DNA of 64,000 nt from Lytechinus pictus. Lineage: Eukaryota. The stretch covers positions 14,510,001 to 14,574,000 of the forward strand of contig NC_087251.1 in NCBI RefSeq assembly GCF_037042905.1, written 5' to 3'. The notes under the pieces are model-generated. The model saw only the letters and a list, made by a program, of their open reading frames with translations. It did no database searches and had not been told where the DNA came from. Each line of letters starts with the position of its first letter. Positions within the stretch are counted from its first letter, which is position 1. A program made the translations under genes and the position numbers. Below, piece by piece: positions 2,386 to 59,660 of this stretch.

Positions 2386-2537
2386 GAGCTTTGTACGATG
2401 CCAGTGGGAGTTACCACTCTGCATATTATGTCGCTGGAGCTTCCACTCTCTTTGCAGTCTTCCTCTTTGTCATCCAGGCTCTTCTCAGAAAGCGTTCCAT
2501 CAGCAGTCAAGACATTAGTAAAGAAAGAAAATCTTAG
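2386..2537 (+). CDS. Terminal coding exon of an MFS transporter, SLC16/monocarboxylate-transporter-like
   Basis: Long polypyrimidine tract and ttccag acceptor at 2385. Read as a phase-1 exon it gives (G)ALYDASGSYHSAYYVAGASTLFAVFLFVIQALLRKRSISSQDISKERKS*, with the G-x-L-x-D-x-x-G-x-Y motif before the last TM helix typical of SLC16. Upstream exons lie outside the window. Confidence 0.75.
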
Positions 2538-6024: not shown

Positions 6025-6079
6025 TTAAGCTATTGCTAAAGGCGTACGCATAAAGCCAGTATTTTGCGTGTGCGTTTAA

Positions 6080-7014
6080 GGACGTTCCACAATTAAAGTG
6101 AAATCCATGTCATTTTCACCAAACTTTGCACATAGATACTTTAGAACCTTAATATTCGAAATATGCAAAAATTAACATAGGTCCATGTGCTTGATTTTTT
6201 GCTATAGAGCTTCAAAGTTCACCCAAATTGATGTTCTTAAGAATTGCGCATTCAAAAGAATTTGGCATTTTTAGACCGCCCAAGATTACTACAATGAGTT
6301 TAAACCTTCATTACTCATTCAAAATACATGAAAAAGTCATCAAATTTCACAAGAGAGTTAATAATTGTATCGTTAGAATGGAGAATCTGTTAATAGTGCT
6401 ATTTGTTTGCAATTTTAAGTTTAACAGCACTGTCAGTTCTTAAAAATGGCGTAAAAGATAACAAAATCCCAATCTGAAAAATGTAAAATTTCAGTAACAA
6501 AATACAAACGTACAATAAATGCTGCACTTTATTCAAAATCCATGTCATTTTCACCAAAATTTGCAGAGTTGTAGAGGAAGGTATACCTAAGAGGTAGAAA
6601 CATTAAGAAATAGGGGTTCATGTGCTTGTTTTTAAACTATCAGCATTTTTATTAGAGCAAATGTGCTTTTTAAAACACCAAAAATGGGCCGAATGCTTAG
6701 TATCTATGTGAAGAAAAAATCAAAACCACTCTACCATTTATTCAAACTCGGGCTAATATTCGTGATTCTTGGCAGCACTGCAGAGTAAAGTATTTTGAAA
6801 TCGTAGAGAATATTTTTTTGAATGGTCCATGGAATAATTCAATTTTTTAGCTTCATGAAATAACGCATCGGATCTGCAGTTAAAGTGCAGAAGACGAGAA
6901 AAATCAGCTCATACCCGCAGCTAATTAATATCTGTTCATCCATTGTGACGTCAGCGCGCAGAGTGTAAACTATGCGCAGATCATAATGCGCACAAATATA
7001 ACTGTGGAACGTCC
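6080..7014. mobile_element. TTAA-flanked MITE (Kolobok-type), 935 bp, copy 1
   Basis: ttaa|ggacgttccaca ... tgtggaacgtcc|ttaa. A near-identical copy of the same length lies at 58607-59541. Confidence 0.85.
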
Positions 7015-8951
7015 TTAAGCACTTGTTGGGGTTTTAAGCTCCGTCAGAGCAGCTTGAGCGTTTACTTCATCAGGGTTTTCGCGTTTTTAAATCATGTTTA
7101 TACACTTGAGAGAGAAGCGTACCGTAACCTACATGTCCTTGTTTCCTTCCTAATAAGTGCTAACCAAATTCCACATATATGAATTTATCAACAAGCAAGA
7201 AACGAGTTATTTTGACATCACGTCTGAGGAAAAGATGTTTAAGGAAAAAAACGGTAATTTGCTCTGCCACACCTTTGTGTTCGAGTCCTGCCTTTTCTGC
7301 GAGTCGTGTTCTCACTAGCATAGCGTGACGTCGCTGTTGTTCAAACCGCTAGCAATAGCTTTCTGAAGGCAAGAAAAGGGACAGTCAAGCACTAGCAAGG
7401 GGTTATGCATATGAAATAAAGCAATTGTTGAAGCATAATCTTTTGCTTGGCTAGCTATTGCTTGTGCTTGAAGCGATTGCTTGCCAGCAATTGCTAATTT
7501 TTATGCATCTGACCCAATGATGCAGGACGCAGCTTTTAGAGATTATATTATGAAAGCTTTCGGCCGTTTATCGGACCATCATGAGGCTTACATGAATATC
7601 ATAGAAAAAACCAGAATAAAACACATGTGAATAAGAACATGAAAAAAAAATAAAAGAAAGGTAACGAAAAGATGGAGTAGGCAACAGAACGGATTGTTGT
7701 GTAAAATGGGAAAATATTCGGTGAGAATCGAAGAAACTTTGAAGACTCGAAACAGAGAAAGAGAGACTGTTCGGTGAGAATTGAAGAAACAGATAAAGTG
7801 AGACTGATCTACAGTCACCGAATATTTTCACATTTTACAGAATTCCGTTTTGTATTTACCAGTGACTGGATAGTGTATGAACGAGCGAACAATGGCGGGA
7901 AATTTTGAATAGCTGATGGGCAGCCAAGAGTGAATGCGTATTTTGCCGACAGGTATAAACAAAGCCGTACTCCCAGCAATGGCGTATGCGGAGGCGCCAC
8001 AGCGACCACGATGACAGCAGAATCTAAACAGCGGATATATGTGATAACTTCATATCGACAGAGTTTCTTTTTCTGATATGTATGAGTGGGACAAGAAGGA
8101 GCTTCAGTACGTGATGTTAAACATTAGTTTGGTGATAACCGGGTAAGTCAGTGAAATAGGCCTAATTTAATTATCTACAATAATATTCCCCTTGGAGCCA
8201 GTTTCATACAAGTTGGGCACCATGCTTGTCCACAAAATGCACGATCGGCGATCATGAACGCGCGTACTGAAAATGGCGAAAATCATGGGGATATTGTCTA
8301 TTTTTAGCAGCCTATCCCAAGTGGTGCATAAAAATAGGGTATATGATATGTCACCCTATCGTAAAAATATAATATTTGTGGTATTATTTAGGGTGGGAAA
8401 GCGTGACATAATTTTTATTTGTTGAGTGTAATCTGAGATCAAATCTCGATATTACTATATAGCTTGTTTATGGTCCTTTTGAAAGTCCGTGGACGAGCAT
8501 CCATCTTGTTTGACAATGGCCCACGGCCGGGAAGCGAAAAATTGTGGTCGCTCGCGTTGCATGCTATGAATGAATCAGCACCCTAAAATTGCCGGTACCC
8601 TTCTAACGTTAGGCCTTGGCCACTCAAGGGTTCGTTAACTCATTACATGCCCCCGCACACATAAAATCAAGCCATAGAAATCGTGTGTTATTGTGGACGC
8701 CAGAAGTGGCGTCGCTAGTTAGAAATCCATCTGCTAGTTAGAAATCTTTGTGCGAGGTTAGTATACCAATAGGCCTACTAACCTCGTATTAGTGTGAGTG
8801 GGCCTTAGGCTTAGATCTAGATCCAATTACACTTATCAGATTGCCATTAATGACAAGACCATGGCTAGCGCCGTAGGCCCCGGGGCGTAGGCTAGGGCAT
8901 TAGGCACTATCTCATTGGTTTAACGTAAGTAAACTTAAAGTTCGGAATTAA

Positions 8952-9335
8952 AGATAAATACCAGTTGTGGTAACGATCTAAAAATGAGTTCGATCAGAAT
9001 CCAATGAAATTACCACCTAAGTGTTTGTATGTATAAATTAAAAAAAATTGCCAAATAGCTCTGACATAAAATGCGTAAAAATGCCAAATAAGCACGGAAT
9101 CCCATCAAATGTCGGGTATTTTTCGAAGCGATATATATTAATGCACTGTGCCAGATATGCTTTTTCAGTGTTAGTGATCATCAGAATTATCGATTTTTAC
9201 CTGAAATTTCATGATTTTACAAAGATAAGTTTACATTAATGTACCAGATCTAGATTTATGTTAATATTTTGACAATAAGTCTTGATTTAAAAGACTTTTT
9301 TAATGAAATAGAATGTCTAATTATTTGCTGCAACT
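8952..9335. mobile_element. TTAA-type MITE, decayed (related copies at ~20560-20760 and 61210-61600)
   Basis: Starts ttaa|agataaataccagttgtggtaacgatc. The reverse complement of this terminus recurs near 20740 and 61570-61600. Confidence 0.55.
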
Positions 9336-12007
9336 AGATATAAAACCCTTTACTGTTACCAGGTTACTATAACCACTTCTAACTTCCCGTGGCATTATTC
9401 GGTTGCGGGCATCACAGACAGGTCCAGATTTCAGATAAGTTAGTGCCCTAGCCTAGACAAGCCATAGCATAGCCTAACCTAGAATTTTGTCTTGTAATTA
9501 ATGACAATTTGGCCCGTATTCTGATAGCAGGTTTAATTTAACCCTAGTCTAAAGTTAACCCTGGTTTAACTAAACCTCCTCTAAACCTCACCTCTGGTCT
9601 AAGTGTAGTTTAATTATTTTGGTATTCTGATAGCCGGGTTTAACTAAACCTGGGTTAAACCCGGGTTTAAAATTATTTTTGGAAATAATAACCCTCTTTT
9701 AACCGGCAAGACTAGCACCTTTTTGGTAAATTACTGCTGCAGGGATGATTGCAACAAAGTTGAAAAAATGTTACTAAAGTTGTTTTTTCTTAAAAATTTG
9801 GATTTTATGGAAACTAATTACAACTATTGTAGTGAAAGAAAATCATTCATCACCCATATATGGTAAGAAATTTTCTTTAAGTTTTTCTTTATTTTTGTTA
9901 ATTACTAAAACATTTCAACCCCAAACCGAGTGACTTGCACAGTTTTTTGTGTATCAGTCCCATTCATTGCTTTTCATGTTTGTCAAAATCTAAATTGAAT
10001 AGATTCCCCTCAACCATACTCTAGACTAGAGTCTAGACTCTAGTCCTAGATCTAAAACAATAAGTTAAGAGGTCGACGTTTTTATTCTAACTTTAAGTAA
10101 GGGAATTTTTTTTTAACTTTTGAGAGTAGTCTTGGGTCTGACATTAGGCCTATAGTTAGATCTAGCCTAGGCCCAATTGTTTGGAGGAGAATTGAACATT
10201 GTTTTGACTGTTTTACTTTTACTTTCCTGAAGCAAAACGTGTCTACGATACGTAGTCTAGTGAGTTAGTGGAGCGACCGAGACTTAAGATACATATTGGT
10301 CTAGGCCTAGAACAACATATTCAGGACTTAGGCTGGCTTAGCTTAGGGACAGGGATAGATATAGATTATTATTCTAACCTTAGAGTTAGATCTAACAAAC
10401 TTAGTGGAATACGAATAGATCTGATTTGTCTTAGACAAAAAGCTTTGAACAGTATCTGGGACCGGGTCTGGGACAGGGATCATACTATTACTAACTTAGA
10501 TAGGCCTAGGCCTATACAGATTATTCTAACCTTAGATCTAGTGGATAGATCTGATACTCTTACTTAGACAAAAAGCTTTGAACAGTCTCTGTATTACTAT
10601 TGGTTGCTCGCTGAACTATGACAGTCTATGTTGGCCTCTCTCACCAAGGCAATGTGATACGACAGTAAAATGTCAGAATTTTTAAAATAAATCCCCAGAA
10701 ACAACGGTTATTCCTGTCTACATTAGGCCTACAGTGTTACTGTTAGATCCAACTATCGCTGCATTGCTTGCCAAGTAACTAGGCCTGGCTAAATTTAGAA
10801 TTAGTCCTAGACATCTCTCTACTCCGGTTTTAGGTCCATATCTGTTTCTTTGAAGAGTTTTTTATTTAATTTTAAACATTTTTGGGGACTCGTTTAGGTT
10901 TCCAGATCCAGGACTAGAAAACAGGCTTGAACCTAGACCAACAGCTCATTCTTGACTAGACTAGGCCTGTCCTGGATTTATGTAAGAATTTAGATCTTGG
11001 CCTAACGTTTGTCTGTGCTATCTATTCTTTCTAGATTCTATTTCTAGCCTAGCCGGTAGCCCTAACATTAGGACTGGCTGATCTAGTCTACTGTATGATC
11101 TAGAATGTCTAACGCTGGCCTAGATCTAGTAGACTAAATAACTTAGACTAAAAGTTAGACCCTATCTAGACCTAGAACTAGATCTATATCAATCTAGGTC
11201 TACATGTAATAGGTCTAGATCTAGAGGTTTGTAGACTCTCAACATGCTCAATGTAGATTCTAAAAAAAAAAGTAAATGTAGGCTAGTCTACAGTAGATCT
11301 ACTCATCTAACTTTACTAGGCCTTTAAATGAAGTAGGCTACAGATCTGTTGGATTATTTCTATTACTAGATCTAAAGGATCTAGATCTACAGCTATGGAC
11401 TGTAGTTCGAGATCTAGAGGTCTAGCACCCCCTTAAAACTAGTACTAAGCCTACAGCTACATGTACTAAACTACTATGTAGTTCTCTTTGTAGCCAAACA
11501 ACAGTTAGCATTGTCTTAATCTTATTTTGGTGTGTGTAGTTACCATACAAACACATATTTTGATGAATGAGAAAATGGGCCTTGCAGATTATTTTACCTC
11601 AAGTCAAAACCTAGTGTTCTAAATTTCATGAGCATAGGCCTATGTCATAAAATGAAGACGTAGTTCAATCCATTAGATGTGCTTACACATTTATTGATTT
11701 AATATGCTGTCACCATGGCAACACAGTTTCCAACACATGTATACAAATACACTACTCAAAAAAAGTTAAGGACCACTTTTTAAAACGTACATAAAGATTT
11801 TATACAAGGTGTTTTATTTCTGGAAATACCTCAGTACAACTGTCCTAAATGTCCTTAAACACGCTGTAATCAATTTCACGCATGGGTGGTTTCAGTTGTT
11901 GCACAATGTCTCTCGCATCACTGCACATCCTGAAAAGTGGGCCCCGAGGGGTATCAGCTACCGACATGAAGTGGTAAAAACGAATGTCTGAGTGTCTTTC
12001 AGGCAGT

Positions 12008-13035
12008 TCAGTAACGAGTGTGACCACCTCCTGCAGCAATAACGGCTTCACAGCGCTGTCTCATGGAGCTGATGAGGCGATTGATGTCTCTGACGTCCAG
12101 TGCATCCCATGCAGCCTCCAGAGCCACACCCAGCTGCTGCAGTCCAAGTGGATGGGCTTCGAGCTGCTCGAGACTCCTCCCCATCATGTCCCAGACGTGC
12201 TCTATCGGGTTTAAGTCCGGGGACCTCGCTGGCCACTCCATACGCTCAATCCCCTGGCCCTCAAGGAACTCGGTCACCACCCTAGCTCGGTGGGCACGGG
12301 CATTGTCATCCATGAAAATGATGTTTTGTCCCACATTTTCTGCAAATGGCACCACTATAGGTTCAAGGACCTCATCCCTGTACCTCACTCCTGTCATTGC
12401 TCCCCCTGGGACCACGTAGAGACGAGTACGGTTGGCGTAGGTGATGCCTCCCCACACCATGACGCTGCCTCCCCCATAACGGTCATGTTCTGCAATACAG
12501 GGGTCTGCAAATCTCTCTCCTGGTCGCCTCCAGACTCTCGAACGTCCATCATTGTGGTCAAGGGAAAATCTGCTCTCATCTGTGAACAGAACTCTACGCC
12601 ATTGCTGTCTGGTCCATCTGACATGCTCCCGGGCCCAGTTGAGACGAATTCTTCTGTGAGCAGGGGTGAGTGGGACACACTGAGCTGGCCGTCTGGCATG
12701 CATATTGGCTCTGTGAAGTCGGTTACGTTTGTTTGAGTGGAAACAATCACTCCAGTTGCTGCAGCGAAGTCATTGTTGAGGCGGCGTGCACTGTGAAAGC
12801 GGTTGCGGAGGCTGAGATTTGTCAAGTAGCGATCATCTCTAGGGGTTGTCGAAACTGGTCGGCCACTGCGGGGTCTCTCGGAGTATAGCCCTGTCTCTCG
12901 GTGTCTTTGATTTGCTCTGCTAATGACACTGTGTGACACGCCCATCATTCTGGCTACTCTTCGCTGACTGAGGCCAGCTTCCAGCATCCCTAGGGCTCTG
13001 GCTACATCTGTTTCACTTAGGTGGTGTCTTGGCAT
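12008..13035 (-). pseudogene. Tc1 transposase (DD34E), full length but frameshifted near 12728
   Basis: ATG at 13035 gives MPRHHLSETDVARALGMLEAGLSQRRVAR..RPRSGRP (HTH and GRP motif). The frame shifts at 'VSTQT' and the catalytic part continues FTDESRF, MDDNARAH, WPARSPDLNPIEHVW, with 34 residues between D and E. Confidence 0.9.
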
Positions 13036-13050
13036 TGCTGTTGTAGGCAA

Positions 13051-13788
13051 GTTTCCACTCAAACAATCCGTAACCGACTTCACAGAGCCAATATGCATGC
13101 CAGACGGCCAGCTCAGTGTGTCCCACTCACCCCTGCTCACAGAAGAATTCGTCTCAACTGGGCCCGGGAGCATGTCAGATGGACCAGACAGCAATGGCGT
13201 AGAGTTCTGTTCACAGATGAGAGCAGATTTTCCCTTGACCACAATGATGGACGTTCGAGAGTCTGGAGGCGACCAGGAGAGAGATTTGCAGACCCCTGTA
13301 TTGCAGAACATGACCGTTATGGGGGAGGCAGCGTCATGGTGTGGGGAGGCATCACCTACGCCAACCGTACTCGTCTCTACGTGGTCCCAGGGGGAGCAAT
13401 GACAGGAGTGAGGTACAGGGATGAGGTCCTTGAACCTATAGTGGTGCCATTTGCAGAAAATGTGGGACAAAACATCATTTTCATGGATGACAATGCCCGT
13501 GCCCACCGAGCTAGGGTGGTGACCGAGTTCCTTGAGGGCCAGGGGATTGAGCGTATGGAGTGGCCAGCGAGGTCCCCGGACTTAAACCCGATAGAGCACG
13601 TCTGGGACATGATGGGGAGGAGTCTCGAGCAGCTCGAAGCCCATCCACTTGGACTGCAGCAGCTGGGTGTGGCTCTGGAGGCTGCATGGGATGCACTGGA
13701 CGTCAGAGACATCAATCGCCTCATCAGCTCCATGAGACAGCGCTGTGAAGCCGTTATTGCTGCAGGAGGTGGTCACACTCGTTACTGA
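13051..13788 (+). pseudogene. Tc1 transposase, N-terminally truncated inverted copy (open catalytic domain; first ATG at 13093)
   Basis: Open frame VSTQTIRNRLHRANMHARRP...GGHTRY*, same 231-aa C-terminal protein as the minus-strand arm, lacking most of the DNA-binding region. Confidence 0.85.
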
Positions 13789-14048
13789 ACTGCCTGAAAG
13801 ACACTCAGACATTCGTTTTTACCACTTCATGTCGGTAGCTGATACCCCTCGGGGCCCACTTTTCAGGATGTGCAGTGATGCGAGAGACATTGTGCAACAA
13901 CTGAAACCACCCATGCGTGAAATTGATTACAGCGTGTTTAAGGACATTTAGGACAGTTGTACTGAGGTATTTCCAGAAATAAAACACCCTGTATAAAATC
14001 TTTATGTACGTTTTAAAAAGTGGTCCTTAACTTTTTTTGAGTAGTGTA

Positions 14049-15110
14049 TATGTCTTGCAGAACTATACCTCAAAACCAATGTGTGAGCCAACTTTTATAA
14101 GAACTGGTTGTAAACTAATGAAGGAGTTCAGATTTTCACCTAATTCATTATGTAATATGTTGTTACCATGGTAACACGATTTCTGATACAGACAAAAATA
14201 TATATTAGACATCTTCACCTCAACATAAATGTATGTGCCAATTTTTTTTATAGAATTGACCACTTGGAAACTGATAAAATAGGTCAAATCACTAAATTTT
14301 CATCTTTGATATTTGATTTGTTACCATGGCAACATGATTTTTTTATAAAGTCATAAATATATATTTTGCACATCTTCACATCAAGACTAATGTTTGTGCC
14401 ACATTTCATGAGAATTGGTTAAAACTGGGGAAGTAGTTGGAATTGCAAGATTTTTATATAAGTTTTGCCATAATATACCGTTACCATGGCAACACAATTT
14501 CTGACATATGCAAAAATGTGTCTTCCAAATTTTCACCTAAAGACTAAAGTCTGTGCCAAATATCATGAGAAATGGTTTAAAAATTCTAAAGTAATAAAAA
14601 CCACAAGTTTTTCACCTAATTTTCGATATTTAATATGTTGTTACCATGGCAACGCAATTATATACTTTAGGCATAGAATACGTTTTGCACATCTTCACAA
14701 TAAGACTAATGTATGTGCCAAATTTCATGAGAATTGGTTAAAAACTGAGGAAGTAGTTGGAACAGCAAGATTTATACATAGCTTTTGCCATAATATACCG
14801 TTACCATGGCAACACAATTTCCGACACATTAAAAAATGTGTCTTGCACATCTTTACCTCAAAATCAATGTGTGAGCCAACTTTCTTGAGAATTGGTAGAA
14901 AACTGATGAAAGTATTTTATACGGCAAAATTTTGGCCACAATATACTGTTACCATGGCAACACAATCTCCAAAAAAGGAGAAAAAAACTTCTTACACTTC
15001 CTTACCTTGAGAACAATGTGTGTTCCAAATTTCATGAAAATCGGTTAAAAACTGAGAAAGTAGCTTGTAATGCAATATAGGCATAAATTCTAAAAAATTG
15101 TTGGCCATGA
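14049..15110. repeat. ~160-bp tandem repeat array with GTTACCATGGCAAC core (begins ~11600, interrupted by the Tc1)
   Basis: Core recurs at ~11709, 14162, 14320, 14480, 14640, 14800 and 14949 with the shared motif ccaaatttcatgagaattgg. Confidence 0.85.
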
Positions 15111-16260: not shown

Positions 16261-18642
16261 CCGTGTTTACACTTGATCGGCTTTTGCATCGGCTTTTTCA
16301 TAGCGTGTAAACGCGATTAACTTGCATCGGCCTTCAGTTCAGAACCGGCAATTTGCACCACCATAGTAGGTTCTGAACCGCGAGCCGATGCAGAATCGGC
16401 TTTTTTTACTGTGTGTAAACAGAAAGCCGATTCTGCATCGGCAATTGGTACGCATTTCATTTACTTTACCATTGTGACGTAATTGTAAGAGCATGGATCC
16501 AGTGTTGTCTTTATTATGACGTATATTTTTGGTGTGCGTATCATTTCAGGTTTTTGCATCGGCTCGCGGTTCTGAACCGCGAGCTGTAACAGCGTGTAAA
16601 CGCAGTGCAAGATAAATCAAAAGCCGTTTCTGCATCGGCTTTTGGTTCTGAACCAAAAGCCAATCAAGTGTAAACACGGTATGAAAATCATGCGCATCGC
16701 ATGAATGATTTTTATCGTGTTTACATGACTGTGATCGGATTTTGGTTCAGAACCAAAAGCCGATGCAGAATCGGCTTTTGGTTTATCTTGCACCGCGTTT
16801 ACACGCTGTTACAGCTCACGGTGCAGAATCGGCTCGCGTGGCAAAAACCTGAAATGATACGCGCACCAACAATATACGTCATAATAAAGACAACGCTGGA
16901 TCCGTGCCCTTTGAAGTACGTACGTCATAAATTACCGTGTTTACACTTAATCGGCTTTTGATCCGGCTCGCGGTTCTGAACCGCGAGCCGATGCAGCATC
17001 GGCTTTTTCATAGCGTGTAAACGCGATTAACTTGCATCGGCTCGCGGTTCAAAACCGGCAATTTGCACCACCAAAGTAGTAGGTTCTGAACCGCGAGCCG
17101 ATGCAGAATCGGCTCTTTTACTACGTGTAAACAGAAAGCCGATTCTGCATCGGCAATTTGTGCGCATTTCATTTACTTTACCATTGTGACGTAATTGTAA
17201 GCGCATGGATCCAGTGTTGTCTTTATTATGACGTATATTTTTGGTGTGCGTATCATTTCAGGTTTTTGCATCGGCTCGCGGTTCTGAACCGCGAGCTGTA
17301 ACAGCGTGTAAACGCAGTGCAAGATAAACCAAAAGCCGTTTCTGCATCGGCTTTTGGTTCTGAACCAAAAGCCAATCAAGTGTAAACACGGTATGAAAAT
17401 CATGCGCATCGCATGAATGATTTTTATCGTGTTTACATGACTGTGATCGGATTTTGGTTCAGAACCAAAAGCCGATGCAGAATCGGCTTTTGGTTTATCT
17501 TGCACCGCGTTTACACGCTGTTACAGCTCACGGTGCAGAATCGGCTCGCGTGGCAAAAACCTGAAATGATACGCGCACCAACAATATACGTCATAATAAA
17601 GACAACGCTGGATCCGTGCCCTTTGAAGTACGTACGTCATAAATTACCGTGTTTACACTTAATCGGCTTTTGATCCGGCTCGCGGTTCTGAACCGCGAGC
17701 CGATGCAGCATCGGCTTTTTCATAGCGTGTAAACGCGATTAACTTGCATCGGCTCGCGGTTCAAAACCGGCAATTTGCACCACCAAAGTAGTAGGTTCTG
17801 AACCGCGAGCCGATGCAGAATCGGCTCTTTTACTACGTGTAAACAGAAAGCCGATTCTGCATCGGCAATTTGTGCGCATTTCATTTACTTTACCATTGTG
17901 ACGTAATTTTAAGCGCACGGATCCAGCGTTGTCTTTATTATGACGTATATTGTTGGTGTGCGTAACATTTCAGGATTTTGCATCGGCTCGCGGTTCTGAA
18001 CCGCGAGCTGTAACAACGTGTAAACGCAAACCAAAAGCCGATCAAGTGTAAACACGGTAATAGGTGAAGTAAATGAAATGCGCGCCAATTGCCGATGCAG
18101 AATCGGTTTTCTGTTTACACGTAGTCAAAAAGCCGATTCTGCATCGGCTTGCGGTTCTGAACCTACAACATTGGCGGTACAAAATTGCAGATTCTGAACC
18201 GAGAGCTGATGCAAGTTAATTGCGTTTACACGCAACAAAAAAGCCGATTCTGCATCGGCTCGCGGTTCAGAACCGCGAGCCGATGCAGAGTCGGCTTTTT
18301 TTATGCAGCGTGTAAACACGGTATTTACGAACTGGCGCTGGGTTTGTGCCGCTAATACCGTGTTTACACTTGATCGGCTTTTGGTTCAGAACCAAAAGCC
18401 GATGCTGAATATACGTCATAATAAAGACAACTCTCGATCCGTGCGCTTACAATTACGTCACAATGGTAAAGTAAATGAAATGCGCACCAATTGCCGATGC
18501 AGAATCGGCTTTCTGTTTACACGTAGTAAAAAAGCCGATTCTGCATCGGCTTTTGGTTTATCTTGCACTGCGTTTACACGCTGTAACAGCTCGCGGTTCA
18601 GAACCGCGAGCCGATTCTAAAGCCGATTAAGTGTAAACACGG
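16261..18642. repeat. Cluster of palindromic MITEs (ccgtgtttacac termini) including a 712-bp tandem duplication
   Basis: Repeated ccgtgtttacact..atcggctttt / aaaagcc..tcaagtgtaaacacgg termini. Identical ORFs at 16701 and 17413 give an offset of 712. Confidence 0.85.
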
Positions 18643-25400: not shown

Positions 25401-25853
25401 CACAAACTTATATTGTCAAGCTTGAGATTAGAATAAAGTCATGGCCCTGGGAATTAGCAGGATGCTTTTCCGGGGGGGGGGGTGCTGCGTGTGTAATTCT
25501 CCATAGGCAGCATCCCCTGGAATTCTGGTAGCTGTGGAAAAAAAAAGTTTTTTTTAGTTTGTTTCTATGTAAAATTTCTCTGGACCAAAATGTGAGTGAA
25601 ACCTTTTTTTTTTGCTTGTCAAAATTTCTCGGGGCCAAAATGCCCTTCATTCTAAAAAAACTCCTTTTTTTTCTTTTTGCTTGTCAAAATGACATCAGCA
25701 CCCTTTGTAAAAAAAAAATCATTCCCAGTGCCCTGAATAAAAATCGGTCAAAATGATATCATATTTTCACTTTTTGTGCTGGATGTGAAAACAATGGGTC
25801 GTAAATTTTAAGACATACAGACTATCAGTTCCTATATGCTCCCTATCAATTAA

Positions 25854-26456
25854 AGGTCAAGTCCACCTCAGAACAATGTTGATTTGAATTAATAGAGAAA
25901 AATCAGACAAGCACAATGCTGAAAATTTCATCAAAATCGAATGTAAAATAAGAAAGTTATGACATTTCAAAGTTTCGCTTATTTTCAACAAAATAGTTAT
26001 ATGAACGAGCCAGTTACATCCAAATGAGAGAGTCGATGATGTCACGCACTCACTATTTCTTTTGTTTTTTATTGTTTGAATTATACAATATTTCAATTTT
26101 TACGAATTTGACGATTAGGACCTCCTTGCCTGAAGCACAAAATGTTAAAATAATGGAATTCCACGAGTTCAGGGAGGAATGAAACTTCATTTCACATGAC
26201 AATGACGAGAAAATAAAAATATTTCATATTTCATATAATAGAATACAAAAGAAATAGTGAGTGAGTGATGTCATCAACTCTCTCATTTGGATGTAACTGG
26301 CTCGTTCATATAACTATTTTGTTGAAAATAAGCGAAACTTTAAAATGCCATAACTTTTTTATTTTACATCCGATTTTGATGAAATTTTCAGTGTTATGCT
26401 TGTTGAATTTTTCTCTTTTTATTCAAATCAAGTTTTTGTTGGGGTGGACTTGTCCT
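25854..26456. mobile_element. TTAA-flanked MITE with ~200-bp TIRs, ~95 bp downstream of the GPB5 stop codon
   Basis: ttaa|aggtcaagtccacc ... ggtggacttgtcct|ttaa; mirrored ORFs at 25857 and 26265; related copy at 50170-50768. Confidence 0.85.
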
Positions 26457-26551
26457 TTAAAGGGCATATTGCACCTTTGCGATTCAAATCGTGGTTGCAC
26501 AGACACTAACATGATGGCGTAAACAAGGTACAGTATATGCTAGAGATCAAA

Positions 26552-26746
26552 TTAAAGCGATAATCCAAAGCAGAATGTGTTATATGGTGAACAGTTTCGA
26601 CATTTACAGCTCCTAGCGTTCCGGTAGGTATAGGTCCTGTTCACACCTGGATCACAATCATCAAGTTCTATCGTCGCAAGCTGGACTTGGTGGTATGAAC
26701 ACATCTCGTGGTGCGAAGACTTGAACGGAAATTCTAATTCTGGGAC
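26552..26746 (-). CDS. GPHB5: Glycoprotein hormone beta-5 (thyrostimulin beta), last coding exon
   Basis: cag acceptor at 26749-26747, phase 0: VPELEFPFKSSHHEMCSYHQVQLATIELDDCDPGVNRTYTYRNARSCKCRNCSPYNTFCFGLSL*. Contains the CxCxxC cystine-knot motif. Confidence 0.92.
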   Translation of the reverse strand, partial: VPELEFPFKSSHHEMCSYHQVQLATIELDDCDPGVNRTYTYRNARSCKCRNCSPYNTFCFGLSL

Positions 26747-28514
26747 CTGTAGTTTTGAGGTGAAAAAACATGAAAATATGAGAGGGGACGATGTTTTTAA
26801 GACATTTAAAGAAAACAAGTGAACACAAAATTATTAAGATGACACATGGCAGAATTGTTATCATTTTCAGGTCTATGTGGGTGTTTGTGAGGGTGAAGAT
26901 GGGTGAGGGTGTGTGTGTGTGAGCATGTGTATGTTATTGCGTGTTTATGATATTTAACGTGATTTTACAAATGAATAATGTTCTACAAATGTAACCCTAC
27001 ATCGTAATAACATCCTGGTGTTTTACACATTAAATTCGAAACTATAAATCAGAGTGCATGGAAGTTGGTAGGAAAGAGAAAGTCAATGATAACATCCACA
27101 TGCATGTCCTGGTTGAGCTGTTTCTGGATTTGAATTCTGAGTTTCGATTTCGGCTCAGTATTGTCATGATTGTGGCGCTATTCAATGCACCATTGCTATC
27201 ATGATCGAAAGGAGAGAAAAATTAGAATGTGCGAAAGCACAATATTGTGGCATCAGTTCCAGTAAAGTTAGTCAACATGTCATTGATTTCCCCGTAGCTA
27301 TTGGCTTCCGACCTTTGGAGAGTTTCCTCTCAAAATTATGTCAAACTAACATGAGAGCTTGGGGCTGATTATCTTGAAATAGGAGTTTCAGGGCGTTCTG
27401 ATTTCAGTGATGATCAGAACCATTCATCAATGATCAAAATGTCAACCCTAAGGTTTTGCCACCTGGTGAGCCAACTAGAATGATCTGCCTATGAATAAAT
27501 CAATGATTGTCATTTCTACAGGGGTTGCAATGCTCTCCTTCTCTTTGCTCTTATTCCCTAAGAAATAAAAGACGAGGTTCCAGGAAGACCATCATCAACA
27601 ACAGAACATTTTTTTTCCCATACAGACCAGTATTCAAAATTATAAATAGTTCCTTGAACTATTGGGAGGAAGCAGGATAATGATATCCTCACTTTGCAGT
27701 TGATTGAGAGCGTAGGAAATCATCATGAAGGTCATCATCCGTTAAACGCATGTGTTTTGTAAGATCAGGGCGCTCCCTTATTATGGCGGGTTTTATTCTA
27801 TTCCAATTTCATCTACTGCAGAAATGTGAAATGTTTAATTGTCATATTCACAATTTATGCACCCATCACTTTACCTCATCCATTACAGGGTAAAAATTTC
27901 TTAGTTAAACGTTGTATTCTTATGTTATAAATACATGACCCTTGCTTCATATTACTAAAGGATGACAATTAAGATAACTTGCTGATATTGGGCATAAAAC
28001 CCTTCTGAATTGACTTTTTATCACTTATGTGTGTTGTTTAAGTACTTATAATTTCATACAGTTTGCTTTTAGGTTATACCGCCTATTTCATTGATTGATC
28101 CTGATTTCCACCGAGGGTAATTATACTTGGGCTTAATATGGCAAACGTTATCTGCAAAGTTTGGCCATCATGAAGTTTTACACAAGTCTAAATGAAAGCG
28201 GGCCATAGCTGTGAACTTCCAATGCCATTGATTAATCCGGTGAGCTGTAAACCTATCGATGGTGTTGTCTTGGAAATAACGTAATATCTTTGGTACGTAT
28301 GGAATCAGTTTCGTCAGTGTGACTGTAGTGTGCGGGATCTTATTGTAAAAGAATAACTTTTCTAACTCGACAGTCCTTATGATTTGGTGTTTGTCTCTTG
28401 CTCACTCATCATTTCGTTATGGATAATTAACCTCAATAAAATCATTAAGCAAGCATCGTCACTATATGCTATTAGAATAACAGTTTTCCTTTTCCTTTCT
28501 GCTTTTAATATTAC

Positions 28515-28766
28515 CTCGTATGTATCGCACCTCCCAAAACAGGCATCTAAAACAAGATTTTGTGGCCGGCATCCGGGTTTTTCTGCCTTGTATTGTAAGT
28601 ATTGCCTGACGTGACAGCCCAAACGACCATTTGCTTCTACTTTTGTAGGCCATATTGTGATATAGAGAACCAGCACTGTGAGGACGAGCGATGTTACCAT
28701 ACGATGGATGCGGTATGACGTCATTGTCGTAGTCAGTGTTTTTGTTGATTTCATCCTCGATTTCAT
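28515..28766 (-). CDS. GPHB5: Glycoprotein hormone beta-5 (thyrostimulin beta), first coding exon
   Basis: Hydrophobic signal peptide (MVTSLVLTVLVLYITIWPTKVEA), then GCHVRQY..KAEKPGC....VLDACFGRCDTYE and a GAG|GTAATA donor. Both exons together give 10 Cys, as in GPB5. Start is ambiguous (ATG at 28766, 28754, 28724 or 28700). An acceptor ccttag at 28775 suggests an upstream non-coding exon. Confidence 0.9.
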
Positions 28767-33300: not shown

Positions 33301-34605
33301 GTACAGGGGAAAAATCATTACCTGCAAATCCGCAATATAGCAATAGAGATATTTCAAATATCAAACAGATAAATATGTTGATCTTATCTGCGAGCGTTTA
33401 TTCACACTAATAAAATTACGACAATTGACTAATATATGACGTTTAAAATCGGTTAACTTGCTTGATTTGTGTCAAAAGAAAACTAGTAAAAAGCAATAAT
33501 TTGCGGTTGATTTGCTTCTAGCCTTTAATTATCAATGTCCCGTATATTCAATTCCTCTTAAAAGCGATGTGAATAATCTACTACAATTGTTTCTGACAGT
33601 TTTCAGTTCATTTTATTTTTTCTTATTTGTGAATTATAAAATTGAATATTCTTGCTTAACCACGTGGGCCATACGTTCACGCATGGCCCACGTAGAATAC
33701 ACCCCACCCACATGAAATATACTTATGAAACATCTATTTATGTACCTTCAATATTACTTCCTCAATCAGGAGTTTGGGAATACGTTTATGTCGTGCGGGT
33801 TCATCGTTGTTAAACAAATATGAAATTTATTCATTCGATTCAATGGGGACCCGCCTACCAGTATCATCACAAAACTTACAACAACGTCATTGATTTTGTT
33901 CCAGTATCAAAAAAAGTGTAAGATCGAATAATTCACTTTATCTTTTCTTATGAATATGAAGGTTTTGTATGGCAATTTCTTTCATAATACTAACCAATGA
34001 TCACTGAATCGTAAAAGAGGACGCTTTTATCTAAACATCCAATGATTGTGGTATCCGAAAAGTTACTTTTGAAAGATGGATAAAATAGACACGGTGAAGT
34101 GCAATTTTATGCATGTCCAGCTGGAATGACTTTTGACATTGATTATGTGACCTAAGACTCGTGCAAAACAATAAGTGATACTTGATTACTATTTCGTCCT
34201 TGTTTCATGGACAAGATCCATAAACTTTCAGTTATGATGACAATTCAAAAATCCCCCAGCATGGCCAAAGTTCTCTGACCCTAAATGACCTTTAGTGACC
34301 TGAAACTCACGCAGGATGTTCATTGATACTTGATTACTCTTATGTCTAAGTTTTATGAACTGCATCCATAAACACTCACAGTTATGATGGTAATTCAACA
34401 ATAAACCTAACATGACCAAAGTTTGTTGACCCTAAGTAGTTAAGGGATAGACCTGGGCTCACTTGACCTTTGACCTTTGAATCCGTAAGAATGCGTAAAA
34501 ATCCGTAAGAATCAAAGTACCTTCGCGCGCGTTTCATGATTACGTATAATTACAAGTTTGAACGTTAATTTTCTTCATTTCCCAACAAATAATCATCGAG
34601 TCAGC

Positions 34606-35256
34606 ATGAATATATTGGATATGTCCAACCGTTACGCTTGTTCACGATGCGATAAAACTTTTAGTAGGAAATATAACATGCAGAGGCATGAACAAATTGA
34701 GCATGATACTGGAGAAGAAACGAGTGAAGATGAAGAATCCGACCCATCCTCTCAAATGCAAAGAGTTGAAGAATCCAACGGTGATTCCGAAACGAGCGTA
34801 TCAGAAAGCGATGGACACGAATCGTCAATGACAGCAAACATGGAAGAAACTGAAGACAACCTCGCTTATCGAGGATGGTTAGAGCAAGCCATGACGGCCA
34901 CCAAGGACTTGAGAGACGAAAAATATCAGAAATACATCTCAGAAGGAATGGAAGAAGAAGACGCTAAAGCAAAGGCTCACGTGAAACTAATGTGGGCAGT
35001 CAAACGCATCTTTTTCGATCTGTACTCTCAGTTCTTGCAGCAGAACGTGTACCTCGAAGACGCTGACATCAATCATGAAATCGTGTCCGATCTCACGGAA
35101 AGATTAGAGAATGGCATGGAATTCCGGAAAGCCGTACAGAGAGTGTTAGCCAGACATGGTTCACAATTCGATGGTTTATTCCAGTATCAAGGTGACGATG
35201 ACGATAATGATGATGGTGGAGAAGAAACGGAGGGTGAAGATGGAACCTACAACTAA
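34606..35256 (+). CDS. Intronless C2H2 zinc-finger / acidic protein (216 aa) carried by the Polinton-like element
   Basis: Open ORF from ATG 34606 (or 34621): YACSRCDKTFSRKYNMQRHEQIEH (one C2H2 finger), D/E/S-rich linker, predicted helical C-terminal domain, acidic tail. AATAAA at 35559. Confidence 0.75.
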   Translation: MNILDMSNRYACSRCDKTFSRKYNMQRHEQIEHDTGEETSEDEESDPSSQMQRVEESNGDSETSVSESDGHESSMTANMEETEDNLAYRGWLEQAMTATKDLRDEKYQKYISEGMEEEDAKAKAHVKLMWAVKRIFFDLYSQFLQQNVYLEDADINHEIVSDLTERLENGMEFRKAVQRVLARHGSQFDGLFQYQGDDDDNDDGGEETEGEDGTYN

Positions 35257-35949: not shown

Positions 35950-36795
35950 GTAGAAATCATACGTCTGTTTCGTGCATCGTATCCTACACGTGACGATTGC
36001 GCCACGGTGGTGCAATACCGGGTAAAGGGTAATTCCCTGGGATGACATCACGGTGCTTACGTAGCCGGTGACGTCATGCGAGGCGGTTGACATATATCCG
36101 CCGAAAGGCGGAGAAAGATCCCTTTTTCAATAGGAAACTGTGCAGAAATCATACGTCTGTTTTGTGCATCGTATCCTATACGTGACGATTGCGCCGCGGT
36201 GGTGCAATACCGGGTAAAGGGTAATTCTATGACATCACGGTGGTTGCGCGGAGAAAGATCCCTTTTTCAATAGGAAACTGTGCAGAAATCATACGTCTGT
36301 TTTGTGCATCGTATCCTATACGTGACGATTGCGCCGCGGTGGTGCAATACCGGGTAAAGGGTAATTCTATGACATCACGGTGGTTGCGCGGAGTCATTAT
36401 CCAATTAAAATCGTGTCCCCGCGCTTCATTATCCAATTAAGATGGCGTCCCCACGCGGAGTCATTATCCAATTAAAATCGCGTCCCGCGCTTCATTATCC
36501 AATTAAGATGGCGTCCCCACGCGGAGTCATTATCCAATTAAAATCGCGTCCCGCGCTTCATTATCCAATTAAGATGGCGTCCCCACGCGGAGTCATTATC
36601 CAATTAAAATCGCGTCCCGCGCTCCATTATCCAATTAAAATCGCTTCCCGCGCTTCATTATCCAATTAAGATGGCGTCCCCACGCGGAGTCATTATCCAA
36701 TTAAAATCGCGTCCCGCGCTTCATTATCCAATTAAAATCGCGTCCCGCGCTCCATTATCCAATTAAAATCGCTTCCCGCGCTCCATTATCCAATT
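35950..36795. repeat. Subterminal tandem repeats of the Polinton-like element (140-bp unit and 66-bp higher-order minisatellite)
   Basis: gagaaagatccc at 36111 and 36251, plus a partial copy near 35950. From ~36390 cattatccaattaa subunits form a 66-bp unit (ORF repeat MASPRGVIIQLKSRPALHYPIK). Confidence 0.9.
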
Positions 36796-41295: not shown

Positions 41296-41640
41296 ACTCT
41301 TTTATACAGAAATGTCGCCTTTTTAGGGAATATACATTTCAATAGTTTCTTGATATATATCGATGTTTTTTTTTAAAAAAAAACTTAGTGGGAACCGAGT
41401 TTTTATATCATGGATATGACATTCATCTCATTTTGAATATGCACCAGCTTAATCATAGAAAGATAAACAGTTGGGATGCAAGATTACAAACTGAATTGCT
41501 TTGCTCATCGTTCGTTTTTATGGTTCATCCTTTTTCTTATTTGAATAGATAATTCAATTTCTCCTAGACTTCAGTTTTCTAGTTCACATTTCAACTGCTG
41601 TGTAATTGACTGCGTTTCCCCTAGTCATACTCCGTCATAC

Positions 41641-44130
41641 TAATTTATTTATTTATTTATTTATTTATTTCTGATATTTTGACAGGGTAGCCCATTCACC
41701 AATAAGTAGTGGTCTTCCATGGGGCCCTGAATAACAATAAACATATTTACAAAATGCATAACGTATGTACAGAATGTTACGGCATTAAGATTCACATTAG
41801 GATTTTAATGTAAAACGAAACATTAACAAACTTAGCAGCAAACAAAACGCAGACGGGCACTCGTTTGACGTATAATCAAATATCAATAAATCAAATTAAC
41901 TAAGAACGACATCTTGAAAATACTGATAATATACACCAAATCATCAAGGTCATGCTAACACAAAATACGCACAACAGTGGATGTTCCGCAAGTTATTTAT
42001 AAATTACAAGTTCTTCTAAACATTCTCTTAAATGAAATGACAGAAGGAGCTGTTCTAATTGAATTATCAAGCTTATTCCATTCAAATATTGAAGAAACAA
42101 TTGGACTACACTTATAACTATCAGTGCGAAACTTGGGCACGCGTAAATATCCACTGTCTCTCTGTCTGGTATGATGTTCATGTACATCATTTGGATTGGT
42201 TAAGTTTACCTGAAGGTAAGAAGGTGCTAAATTATGAACACATTTATATATCATCAAAACGCGACTGAGCTCAAATCGTTTGTCTAGTGTCATCCATTTT
42301 AGACTTGCGAACAAATCAGCCGACGGTGTGTCGTATGTCTTGTTTAATATTATTCTTGCAGCCCTCTTCTGAATTTTTTGCAGCTTAATTGTATGGGATT
42401 GAAATCTATTCGACCATACAGCAAAACAGTAATCAAATCTTGGCAACACTAAACTGTTATAAAGCAACTTTAAGGACTACACAGGCAAAGAACTTTTCGC
42501 TCTCTTTATTATGCCAATACTTTTCTGAGTAAGTTTACATACATTTTCAATTTGTTTTGACCATTTCAGTGGTTTATGGTTCATCCTTTTTCTTATTTGA
42601 ATAGATAATTCAATTTCTCCTAGACTTCAGTTTTCTAGTTCACATTTCAACTGCTGTGTAATTGACTGCGTTTCCCCTAGTCATACTCCGTCATACTAAT
42701 TTATTTATTTATTTATTTATTTATTTCTGATATTTTGACAGGGTAGCCCATTCACCAATAAGTAGTGGTCTTCCATGGGGCCCTGAATAACAATAAACAT
42801 ATTTACAAAATGCATAACGTATGTACAGAATGTTACGGCATTAAGATTCACATTAGGATTTTAATGTAAAACGAAACATTAACAAACTTAGCAGCAAACA
42901 AAACGCAGACGGGCACTCGTTTGACGTATAATCAAATATCAATAAATCAAATTAACTAAGAACGACATCTTGAAAATACTGATAATATACACCAAATCAT
43001 CAAGGTCATGCTAACACAAAATACGCACAACAGTGGATGTTCCGCAAGTTATTTATAAATTACAAGTTCTTCTAAACATTCTCTTAAATGAAATGACAGA
43101 AGGAGCTGTTCTAATTGAATTATCAAGCTTATTCCATTCAAATATTGAAGAAACAATTGGACTACACTTATAACTATCAGTGCGAAACTTGGGCACGCGT
43201 AAATATCCACTGTCTCTCTGTCTGGTATGATGTTCATGTACATCATTTGGATTGGTTAAGTTTACCTGAAGGTAAGAAGGTGCTAAATTATGAACACATT
43301 TATATATCATCAAAACGCGACTGAGCTCAAATCGTTTGTCTAGTGTCATCCATTTTAGACTTGCGAACAAATCAGCCGACGGTGTGTCGTATGTCTTGTT
43401 TAATATTATTCTTGCAGCCCTCTTCTGAATTTTTTGCAGCTTAATTGTATGGGATTGAAATCTATTCGACCATACAGCAAAACAGTAATCAAATCTTGGC
43501 AACACTAAACTGCTTTATAAAGCAACTTTAAGGACTACAAAGGCAAAGAACTTTTCGCTCTCTTTATTATGCCAATACTTTTCTGAGTAAGTTTACATAC
43601 ATTTTCAATTTGTTTTGACCATTTCAGTTCTTCATCTATCAAAACTCCTAAGCATTTGGTGAATTGAACTCTATTTATCAAATCACCGTTTAACGAAATC
43701 GTGAAAGAATCTATATTCCTGAGATTAGCACGAGAACCTATTATCATGACACAAGTTTATTTCAGTGTTGAGGACGAGCTGATTATCTTTAATCCATGCC
43801 ATGACCTTGTGTAATGCAACAGTTAATTTTTCTTCCAAAACTGTCGCATCATTCGCACTGACGGTAAGTGTCGTGTCGTCAGCGTACATATCTATGATAC
43901 CTTCATGAATACATTCAGGTAAGCTATTAACATATATTGAAAATAAAAGGGGACCTAGAATTTACCCTTGTGGCACGCCTAATTTGACGATTGAAGGGTG
44001 CGATTTGGCTCCTTTGAATTGTGTCACTTGTTGTCGATCAAATAAATATGATTTGAACCAAGTGATAGTCCTATTACTACAACCAATGCAAGCTAATTTC
44101 TTTAAAAGCAGCTCATGGTCCACGGTATCA
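41641..44130 (-). mobile_element. 5'-truncated L2/CR1-group LINE with its 3' part tandemly duplicated
   Basis: Minus-strand motifs 'DTVDHELLLKKL', 'GVPQG', YADDT (~43875-43890), 'KCLGVLIDEELKW', 'LYNSLVLPRFDYC..VW', 'LQKIQKRAARII'. (AAAT)n tails at ~41645 and ~42700. Repeat offset 1056 bp. Confidence 0.9.
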
Positions 44131-49323: not shown

Positions 49324-50169
49324 ATTTGAATTTGTAAAATGTGTAGTTACATATAGTATTGCAAAGCGATGCAACATCTTTGGTATGATAAACAACTAAC
49401 ATTAATGGTATTAGCCTTACTAGCTAGATGAAATAATGAGTTGGAGAAGTTTTTCCAAGGATTATCAAAGGTTACATCGAAGGCTGAAAGAAGATGGCAA
49501 TGATAAGGTCGAGAAGCGGTCCGTGTTGGTGCTAATAAACTAATGCAATAAATACACTAACTATCGTAATATCCAGACACTAAAAATCTAACAAGAAGCG
49601 GATATACTGTACACAATCACGTACAATCTGCCGCGTTGGGTTTTAGCTCTAATTGCGTAGTTAGATTCAGCCGAATGGCGTGTTTATCGTGAAGTATCCC
49701 GAACCAATATATCAATTAATAGAAAGGTTGTGTTGTCACGGCAAGGATCAAGCATGTCTCTTCAGCATTAGCGAGACAGTCCTACTACGGGCAGCTGTTC
49801 TTATCTTGATTAATCAAGGTCTGCTGACATCCCCTTTTCCTCCCTGATTGTCTCCCTCGTCTTGTTAGAGTACCAAATACAAAATTCTGGTCAAGGCCAT
49901 GAATAACAGTTTCCTTTTAAATCATAATTTTAGAATATGAAACGATATCACATGGAAGCGCTTTGCTCATTCGCAAAACCTGATATCCCAATATTATTGA
50001 GCAATACACAAGAGTTGATTCAGCACTTTTTCCAAATTTAATAAATAAATTTAGTTGTCCTTCTTTGTATTGTCATTTTTTCATTTCATAAGTCTAACAC
50101 GATCTATCTCGAAGTCATATAAAAATGTATACTAGTATTTGAACTTTAAGTTATAAAGAATGTATTTAA

Positions 50170-59541: not shown

Positions 59542-59660
59542 TTAACATATTACAACAAATTTGGCAACTCTTTTATTTAAGTATGTTGTGAAAAAAAAAT
59601 AATAAAGAGATAAAGAGAAAGGGCAGATAGCTCTGGGGAACCTTGATTTAAGCTACGCCT

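What the first reader, a model, noticed from the sequence alone, without database searches (positions are those of the whole stretch)
11750..14046. Fold-back Tc1: two 3' halves head-to-head forming a ~1-kb near-perfect hairpin
Seen: both ends are the transposase 3' end. The ~995-bp arms differ, as far as I could see, only near 11808/13988 and near 12728. The ~306-bp spacer holds the N-terminal DNA-binding codons and only ~15 bp upstream of the ATG, so the promoter and 5' region are gone. TA flanks sit in an otherwise continuous host repeat. Inference: formed by template switching during gap repair. It keeps two TIRs and could still be mobilised, and read-through transcription from either side would give long dsRNA against the whole Tc1 family (a MuKiller-like silencer locus).
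Basis: partly seen in the sequence, partly recalled or inferred. Interest (0 to 1): 0.75.

Follow-up and report, generated by a model that had tools for sequence, protein, structure and literature searches.

The report
Mirror-ended Tc1 transposon in sea urchin
A young sea-urchin jumping gene has had its front end replaced by a mirror copy of its last 1 kb, a repair accident already known from insects; it could make silencing hairpin RNA if the host transcribes the site, but that is not shown.

Summary
Observation confirmed. 11750-14046 is a 2,297-bp derivative of a young DD34E Tc1 family in a Lytechinus sea urchin. The left part is a near-complete copy: the whole ORF with a 1-bp frameshift, plus 15 bp of leader. 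The 5' TIR and promoter side is replaced by an inverted 996-bp copy of the 3' end. Public runs gave the empty site (one TA) and the intact 5' leader, which shows a 3-nt microhomology at the junction. No laid run covered the junction (0 of 3 informative contig sets, which drop rare variants), so an assembly artefact is unlikely but not excluded. The 3'-3' architecture and the template-switch mechanism are already published (Rpmar17/Rpmar49, Goblin). The scan noted such hairpins three more times in this genome (unchecked notes claim about 150) and once in another genome. The silencer role is unshown. Indirect hints suggest the site is active: flanks are strongly over-represented in two host-like runs and CpG-poor. 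[quoted passage not shown] Verdict: new member of a known kind, interest 0.3.

The parts
11748..11749 (.). Left TA of the target-site duplication
   Evidence: Contigs of runs X1 and X6 run from the left flank through 11749 straight into the right flank from 14049, i.e. an empty site with one TA
11750..11783 (-). 3' TIR of the left copy, about 34 bp
   Evidence: Records from intact 5' ends match to 11783 and then diverge (3 contigs in X1, 7 reads in X24)
11750..12744 (-). Left arm, 995 nt: 3' TIR, 3' UTR and transposase codons 98-342
11813..11818 (-). AATAAA hexamer of the left arm, pointing outward (possible poly(A) signal, inferred)
12008..13035 (-). Complete transposase ORF of the left copy, frameshifted near codon 102-103
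   Evidence: Codons 1-97 and the right arm's codons 98-342 are each 100% identical to the 342-aa P0123; frames
12728..12729 (.). Private substitution plus 1-nt loss in the left arm, about 16 nt from the stem base; causes the frameshift
   Evidence: Family contigs of X1, X6 and X9 all differ from the window here and the right arm has the family version
12742..12744 (+). AAC, the partner of the 3-nt junction microhomology
12745..13050 (-). Spacer (loop), 306 nt: 15 nt of leader and codons 1-97 (paired-like HTH); private base at 12820
   Evidence: Pfam HTH_38, HTH_29, HTH_23; 12820 differs from all 4 laid runs
13051..13053 (+). Junction microhomology GTT, shared by the intact leader (antisense) and codon 98 (sense)
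   Evidence: Intact-element contigs of X1, X6 and X9 match through 13053 and then continue into 108-197 nt of 5' sequence absent from the window
13051..14046 (+). Right arm, 996 nt: codons 98-342 (DD34E domain, stop 13786-13788), 3' UTR, TIR; private base at 13989
   Evidence: Pfam DDE_3 E=1.4e-19; 34 residues between the second D and the E
13978..13983 (+). AATAAA hexamer of the right arm, pointing outward (possible poly(A) signal, inferred)
14013..14046 (+). Right TIR, identical to the left over 34 bp
14047..14048 (.). Right TA of the target-site duplication

Best explanation
A real, transposase-dead, probably still mobilisable 3'-3' derivative of a recently active DD34E Tc1 family (parent at least 1.5 kb long, 342-aa transposase, 34-bp TIRs). 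It arose by abortive gap repair with a TIR-guided template switch. After an intact element excised, one broken end copied the donor from its 3' TIR to 15-18 nt past the ATG. The other end copied the 5' TIR, switched to the identical 3' TIR and copied 996 nt inward. The two new ends joined at the 3-nt GTT/AAC microhomology. This happened either at this TA or at a donor site from which the product then jumped here. SHOWN: the anatomy, the parent's 5' continuation, the microhomology, the empty site with one TA, and an intact transposase in the family. INFERRED: the repair route, its place and present mobility. Most likely it has no function of its own and is a by-product that can hitch-hike on the family's transposase.
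For: The mirror image stops exactly at the TIR and TA, and the two flanks are different and continue one host repeat. The empty allele was seen in 2 of the 4 laid runs, from two studies of organism A. Intact-element contigs in 3 of 4 runs match to 13053 and go on into 5' sequence the window lacks, fixing a 3-nt inverted microhomology; at least 3 nt arises at 5.3% of random antisense-sense joins of this element. A 7-nt inverted match straddles the ORF-side breakpoint and starts 3 nt past the leader-side one; 2.0% of random 24-nt window pairs share at least 7 nt (a post-hoc test). The 5' and 3' TIRs match over 34 bp in organism A, enough for a switch. The same product and route are described for Goblin, and the same product for Rpmar17 and Rpmar49. 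Each arm carries its own private change against family contigs, which a mirrored assembly of one read set would not give.
Against: No record covered 13054-13120 in any of the 4 laid runs. The last-bin depths equal 5/72 of the element depth in X1, X6 and X9, and X24 had at most 3 reads near the site. So the junction is known from this assembly only. The microhomology is only 3 nt, in the range that PMC3814204 assigns to classical end joining. The arms share no derived change, so one-template and two-template origins cannot be told apart. The model does not explain the complex change at 12728-29 close to the stem base. No allele with an intact element at this TA was seen.
Confidence: 0.6

Rival explanations
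1. Two-copy origin: two family copies lay close together in inverted orientation, a deletion removed their facing 5' ends at the microhomology, and transposase moved the 3'-3' unit to this TA (the route proposed for Rpmar17 and Rpmar49).
For: Published for the same architecture. The arms share no derived base and each has its own change. The single TA duplication fits a fresh insertion.
Against: It needs two close insertions, a deletion and a jump. No other copy of the family lies in the 64-kb window. No sibling with this junction was found (all weak).
Confidence: 0.15
2. Intrastrand fold-back: a nascent strand ending at 13053 snapped back on 12742-12744, primed copying of itself to the TIR, and was then joined to the right flank or re-inserted.
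For: Short inverted matches (3 nt, and 7 nt next to it) bound the loop. The complex change at 12728-29 lies about 16 nt from the stem base and creates a local GTTT repeat, as slippage at a hairpin might. The target is nearly palindromic for 7 nt on each side, which could help end joining.
Against: The right arm has the family base at 12728-29, so it was not copied from the present left arm. Copying must stop exactly at the TIR and not run into the left flank.
Confidence: 0.12
3. Assembly or library artefact: an ordinary intact insertion was mis-assembled as a hairpin.
For: The junction is not seen in independent runs. The window has other near-perfect tandem duplications (1,056 bp at 99.7%; 140 bp x2 at 100%). 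No genome or source reads were available.
Against: A fold-back read would mirror host flank as well, and here it does not. An intact insertion gives no reads joining the right flank to the 3' arm beyond the 34-bp TIR. The arms differ from each other. An unchecked scan note reports one 3'-3' junction at five sites in this genome.
Confidence: 0.07
4. Functional overlay, independent of origin: the locus is a Mu-killer-like trigger. Host read-through crosses both arms, ends at the second arm's outward AATAAA, and gives a ~1-kb dsRNA stem whose small RNAs repress the whole family.
For: The stem is near-perfect and covers 245 codons plus the 3' UTR of an almost invariant family. Left-flank depth is 1.9x and 2.8x the element depth in X1 and X6 (16 of 16 bins covered) but 0.02x in DNA-like run X9 (8 of 16 bins; about 0.1x over covered bins), as expected if the site is transcribed or open chromatin in organism A. 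Empty-site contigs cross the insertion point. The 3 most CpG-poor of 60 host 1-kb tiles are the three next to the insertion. Read-through fold-back RNA silences Tc1 in C. elegans (review passage). Sea urchin has one Dicer (review passage).
Against: No junction-spanning RNA and no small-RNA data. X1 is RNA only by the tool's guess, X6 is of unknown kind, and the tool warns that summed contig depth is a poor measure. Left-flank CpG loss has no TpG/CpA excess (0.89-0.93) and may be compositional. The element's promoter side is gone. No host exon flanking the site was identified (0 convincing Pfam hits near it among 12 ORFs). The nearest named gene, GPB5, ends 12.5 kb away. Muk and the Ac killers duplicate 5' ends. 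No siRNA population was detected in amphioxus. If about 150 such copies exist, this one is not special.
Confidence: 0.12

Closest known systems
Goblin, derived from the Tc1/mariner element Ozma in Aedes aegypti (PMC3814204; passages and section 14 read)
   Same: Both sides of the junction come from the 3' end of the parent with unequal lengths; inverted microhomology at the junction; proposed TIR-to-TIR template switch during SDSA.
   Different: Goblin is 213 bp with 54-bp TIRs, 15 copies and a 6-bp microhomology. This element is 2,297 bp, larger than its parent, with ~1-kb arms that include coding sequence, a 3-nt microhomology and no second copy shown.
Rpmar17 and Rpmar49 mariner lineages of Rhodnius prolixus (PMC4678618; section 13 read in full)
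   Same: 5' part replaced by an inverted 3' part with transposase homology, giving very long TIRs; TA duplication; Rpmar17 copies have many different breakpoints.
   Different: These are DD34D mariners, mostly 900-970 bp (longest above 1,700 bp), amplified to 13 and 140-227 copies. Here: DD34E Tc1, 2.3 kb, the whole ORF kept in one half.
Rearranged Dromar MITEs of Drosophila (PMC4161770; passages read)
   Same: One end of a mariner replaced by an inverted copy of the other, giving long inverted repeats.
   Different: All seven cases are 5'-5', and the MITE sublineages are under 1 kb.
[quoted passage not shown]
   Same: Kilobase inverted duplication of transposase sequence bounded by two copies of one end.
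   Different: They duplicate the 5' TIR/promoter end, are shown to be transcribed, to give small RNAs (Ac killers) and to silence in trans in a plant. None of that is shown here.
Engineered two-right-end Mos1 (PMC4505599; section 25 read)
   Same: Two 3' ends; such donors transpose in vitro, 26-fold better than the natural pair for Mos1.
   Different: Mos1's gain comes from imperfect TIRs. Here the two TIRs appear identical over 34 bp in organism A, so no such gain is predicted from the TIR itself.

Membership tests
Tc1 family (DD34E) | DD34E catalytic triad | tested here: met
   D153, D244, E279 with 34 residues between; DDE_3 hit
Tc1 family (DD34E) | N-terminal paired-like HTH domain | tested here: met
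   HTH_38, HTH_29, HTH_23 and HTH_Tnp_Tc3_2 above cut-off
Tc1 family (DD34E) | TA target duplicated on insertion | tested here: met
   Empty site with one TA in X1 and X6
Tc1 family (DD34E) | Short TIRs in the parent | tested here: met
   5' ends match the 3' end over 34 bp
Autonomous Tc1 element | Intact ORF with its 5' end | tested here: not met
   1-nt loss at 12728-29; 5' TIR and at least 197 nt of 5' sequence missing
3'-3' rearranged Tc1/mariner derivatives (Goblin, Rpmar17/49) | 5' part replaced by an inverted 3' part of an identifiable parent | tested here: met
3'-3' rearranged Tc1/mariner derivatives (Goblin, Rpmar17/49) | Inverted microhomology at the junction (Goblin) | tested here: met
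   3 nt; chance 5.3%
3'-3' rearranged Tc1/mariner derivatives (Goblin, Rpmar17/49) | Transposed after rearrangement (two or more sites with one junction) | tested here: inconclusive
   No genome held; junction absent from 3 contig sets that drop rare variants, from viral contigs and from protein look-ups
MITE | Short, shorter than the parent | tested here: not met
   2,297 bp against a parent of at least about 1.5 kb
Mu killer / Ac killer type silencer | Long inverted duplication of transposase sequence | tested here: met
Mu killer / Ac killer type silencer | Duplicated part includes the 5' promoter end | tested here: not met
   Arms are 3'; only the 34-bp TIR is shared with the 5' end
Mu killer / Ac killer type silencer | Transcribed across both arms | tested here: inconclusive
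   No junction record; flank over-represented in X1 and X6, whose RNA status is not established
Mu killer / Ac killer type silencer | Arm-derived small RNAs | not testable with these tools
   No small-RNA run among the 24 listed
Mu killer / Ac killer type silencer | Heritable trans-silencing of the active family | not testable with these tools
   Needs crosses of carriers and non-carriers

The most novel reading that the evidence does not exclude
The hairpin landed in an actively transcribed host locus and, being 3'-3', supplies its own outward poly(A) signal at the end of the second arm in either direction. It would then be a self-terminating ~1-kb hairpin RNA gene against a very young Tc1 family that is near-identical in several differently labelled organisms. 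That would be an animal counterpart of Mu killer, segregating against an empty allele in a tractable sea urchin. If the unchecked count of about 150 such elements holds, 3'-3' conversion could be a built-in brake that an invading Tc1 family generates against itself.
Probability: 0.12. Interest if true: 0.72.

Novelty: new member of a known kind. Interest (0 to 1): 0.3.

Why it matters
As it stands it is a clean, base-level example of a known repair accident, caught early: three private changes in 2.3 kb, with the parent and the empty site both recoverable from public runs. It is larger than the published insect cases. It would matter more if read-through were shown, because how animals first start silencing a newly arrived DNA transposon is an open question. 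A present/absent hairpin allele in Lytechinus, where stable Minos transgenesis is reported (search listing only, PMC11361634), would make that directly testable.

Tried and rejected
Whole-genome copy count: no genome held. Search for intact copies in metagenome contigs with a 20-mer from the leader: 6 of 6 loci were chance bacterial matches of 20-21 nt only. Junction 18-mer in viral contigs: 0. Transposase relatives in viral contigs: 0 of 6 candidates confirmed. In prokaryote genomes: 9 of 201 candidates, all 30-45% over short stretches. These collections hardly hold urchin DNA, so the negatives are weak. Junction-bearing proteins: 5 candidates, none significant (it also missed the family's own N-termini, so sensitivity is low). 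Exact look-up of 4 window-encoded frameshift or junction products: 0 of 4. Scan look-ups by sequence with the arm, the protein and the place gave 0 windows, but a control repeat from the window also gave 0, so they say nothing on whether the other notes concern this family. GPB5 intron as host: rejected, the gene spans about 26.6-28.8 kb only. Nested insertion of one copy into another: rejected, host DNA follows each TIR directly. MITE label: rejected on size. The A>G differences at 11905/11906 were not taken as editing; they vary among runs like family polymorphism. Runs X20-X23, with shares under 0.1, were not used. Paper searches returned no description of this urchin family and no animal Tc1 hairpin 'killer' locus; the library lacks most subscription papers. 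No supplementary files were read; supplements of the mariner surveys may list larger 3'-3' copies.
Full report
1. Observation. The longest inverted repeat in the window is this one. A gapped comparison gives arms 11750-12744 and 13051-14046 at 99.7%, with a 306-nt spacer. The arms differ at 11807/13989 and at 12728-29 only. Both outer ends are the same TIR bordered by TA. The spacer carries codons 1-97 on the minus strand (ATG at 13035) and 15 nt of leader; the right arm starts at codon 98. Pfam finds HTH domains in the spacer and DDE_3 in the arm, and the triad is DD34E. A 481-nt stretch around the centre folds as one long stem (z = -20), as expected.

2. Host and family. A two-exon GPB5 gene at about 26.6-28.8 kb matches a protein record named Lytechinus pictus. 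Exon 2 is 100% identical over 64 aa and exon 1 is 100% over the 68 aa aligned. So the host is a Lytechinus sea urchin, probably that species. The family is young: P0123 (342 aa, seen on 18 contigs) is identical to both pieces of this copy. Of 24 runs listed, 20 hold part of 11400-14400. An intact element without flanks should hold 0.60 of the distinct words. Organisms B, C, D and one marine metagenome show 0.57-0.59, and organism A shows 0.65-0.73, i.e. element plus some flank.

3. What independent runs show (4 of the 24 runs laid, on 10120-13120, one arm plus 70 nt of the other). (a) Empty site: X1 and X6 each have a contig that passes 11749 and continues with the window's right flank from 14049, so the target had one TA. 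(b) Parent: X1, X6 and X9 have contigs that match to 13053 and then go on for 108, 108 and 197 nt of sequence the window lacks. The parent is therefore at least about 1.5 kb, and the junction has a 3-nt microhomology. A 7-nt inverted match lies at both breakpoints. Chance levels are 5.3% and 2.0% (the second test is post hoc). (c) TIR: intact 5' ends match the 3' end over 34 bp. (d) Private changes: against X9's contig the left copy differs only at 12728-29 and 12820, so the right arm's base at 13989 is also private. That makes three changes in 2,297 bp, none shared by the arms. (e) Against my reading: nothing covers 13054-13120. The last-bin depths are exactly 5/72 of the element depth in X1, X6 and X9, and X24 has almost no reads there. 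Contigs drop rare variants, so this says the junction is not common in those samples, not that it is absent. In X6 the arm contig and the spacer-plus-leader contig have equal depth (160.1 and 157.5), so 3'-3' forms do not dominate that sample. X24 (organism E, poly(A) RNA) has 137 family reads, none on the flanks, so it tells nothing about this locus.

4. Mechanism. The simplest route is the one drawn for Goblin (PMC3814204, section 14 read). In gap repair after excision, the end that copied the 5' TIR switches to the 3' TIR, extends inward, and joins the other end at an inverted microhomology. All sequence requirements are met here. Rivals are a deletion between two close inverted copies followed by a jump (proposed for Rpmar17/49, PMC4678618, section 13 read) and an intrastrand snap-back. 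The family is too uniform to tell one template from two. An artefact is unlikely: the mirror stops exactly at TIR and TA, the flanks differ and continue one host repeat across the site, and the arms differ from each other. It is not excluded without spanning reads, and the window holds other near-perfect duplications. The target is an AT-rich near-palindrome, as Tc1 targets tend to be (recalled, from no call).

5. Function. The copy cannot make transposase: it is frameshifted and lacks its 5' end. It keeps two TIRs, and intact transposase exists in the family, so mobilisation in trans is plausible. Two-right-end Mos1 donors work in vitro (PMC4505599, section 25 read), though their advantage comes from imperfect TIRs that this family seems to lack. 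For silencing, a host transcript must cross it. In favour: relative to the element, the left flank is 1.9x and 2.8x as deep in X1 and X6 but 0.02x in the DNA-like X9 (about 0.1x over covered bins), which suggests a transcribed or open site in organism A. The three tiles beside the insertion are the most CpG-poor of 60; gene-body methylation marks constantly transcribed genes in invertebrates (abstract start of PMC11292947). A CpG-rich patch with a candidate splice donor lies at about 8.7 kb. Each arm ends in an outward AATAAA. Against: X1 and X6 are not established as RNA, summed contig depth is a poor measure, the left CpG loss shows no TpG/CpA excess, no flanking exon was identified, and no junction RNA was seen. 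[quoted passage not shown] Sea urchin has a single Dicer (passage of PMC3268030), and amphioxus showed no siRNA population (passages of PMC6396948). I put the silencer role at about 0.12.

6. Earlier scan notes. Three notes on this genome describe Tc1 hairpins of 2,064, 2,312 and 2,537 letters. Two of them claim about 145-150 3'-3' copies, and one claims a single junction at five sites. One note on another genome describes a multi-copy 5'-5' case. I could not check these. The sizes would fit this family with ~1-kb arms, but sequence look-ups were uninformative (control 61). In X9 the family is only about ten times deeper than host-like flank pieces, which does not fit 150 such copies in that sample. 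They lowered my estimate of this locus being special.

7. Verdict. The structure is real as described and is a Tc1 derivative of a known kind with a published mechanism. It is larger than the insect precedents and well documented here at base level. My ten paper searches found no animal Tc1 'killer' locus, so the silencer reading would be new if shown, but it is not shown. Novelty: new member of a known kind. Interest 0.3; 0.72 if the silencer case (probability 0.12) is true.

Noticed in passing
P0121 versus P0123; runs X9-X14: A transposase in a Nymphon striatum (sea spider) record is 90.5% identical over 337 aa to the urchin family. The element's words are held almost completely by four differently labelled organisms, and it was laid in a fifth. 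Candidate recent horizontal spread, or contamination or related labels; 0 papers held the three search terms.
   Followed up: partly
window 11746-12490, run X24: Organism E transcribes family copies with two other flanks and what looks like an internally deleted copy (12490 joined to the 5' end); first mates fall about equally on both strands.
   Followed up: no
window 26555-28766, minus strand: Two-exon glycoprotein hormone beta-5 (GPB5) gene; a few motif scans found no GPA2 partner in the window.
   Followed up: partly
window 8600-11749: CpG-rich patch with a candidate splice donor at 8757, followed by a CpG-poor stretch dense in CTAG, AGATCT and AGGCCT words; a similar patch lies at 21-22.3 kb. 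Possibly the start of an unannotated transcription unit that contains the insertion site.
   Followed up: partly
window 2386-2537, plus strand: Looks like the last coding exon of a monocarboxylate-transporter-type gene (resemblance recalled; Pfam gave no hit).
   Followed up: no
window 41517-43628: Tandem duplication of a 1,056-bp LINE-like fragment at 99.7% (one substitution, one 2-nt indel): very recent or an assembly overlap.
   Followed up: partly
window 16286-18620: CpG-rich element built of several internal palindromes, with a 712-bp tandem duplication at 97.8%.
   Followed up: no
window 25850-26460 and 50165-50764: Two copies (85% alike) of a ~600-bp palindromic MITE-like element.
   Followed up: no
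window 12397-13581, minus strand: A 395-codon open frame runs from the antisense right arm through the junction, in frame with the transposase ATG, and on past the frameshift. Probably incidental; not in the protein collection.
   Followed up: partly
window 11201, 11458, 22685, 22730, 23798, 31657, 57405: Seven TACATGTA words, two within 550 bp of the insertion; earlier scan notes read such words as excision scars.
   Followed up: no
window 34540-35253 and 36108-36795: A 238-codon frame with one C2H2 zinc finger, followed by a perfect 140-bp duplication and a 31-33-bp tandem array.
   Followed up: no
window 6075-7018 and 58602-59545: A 945-bp dispersed repeat at 96% identity.
   Followed up: no
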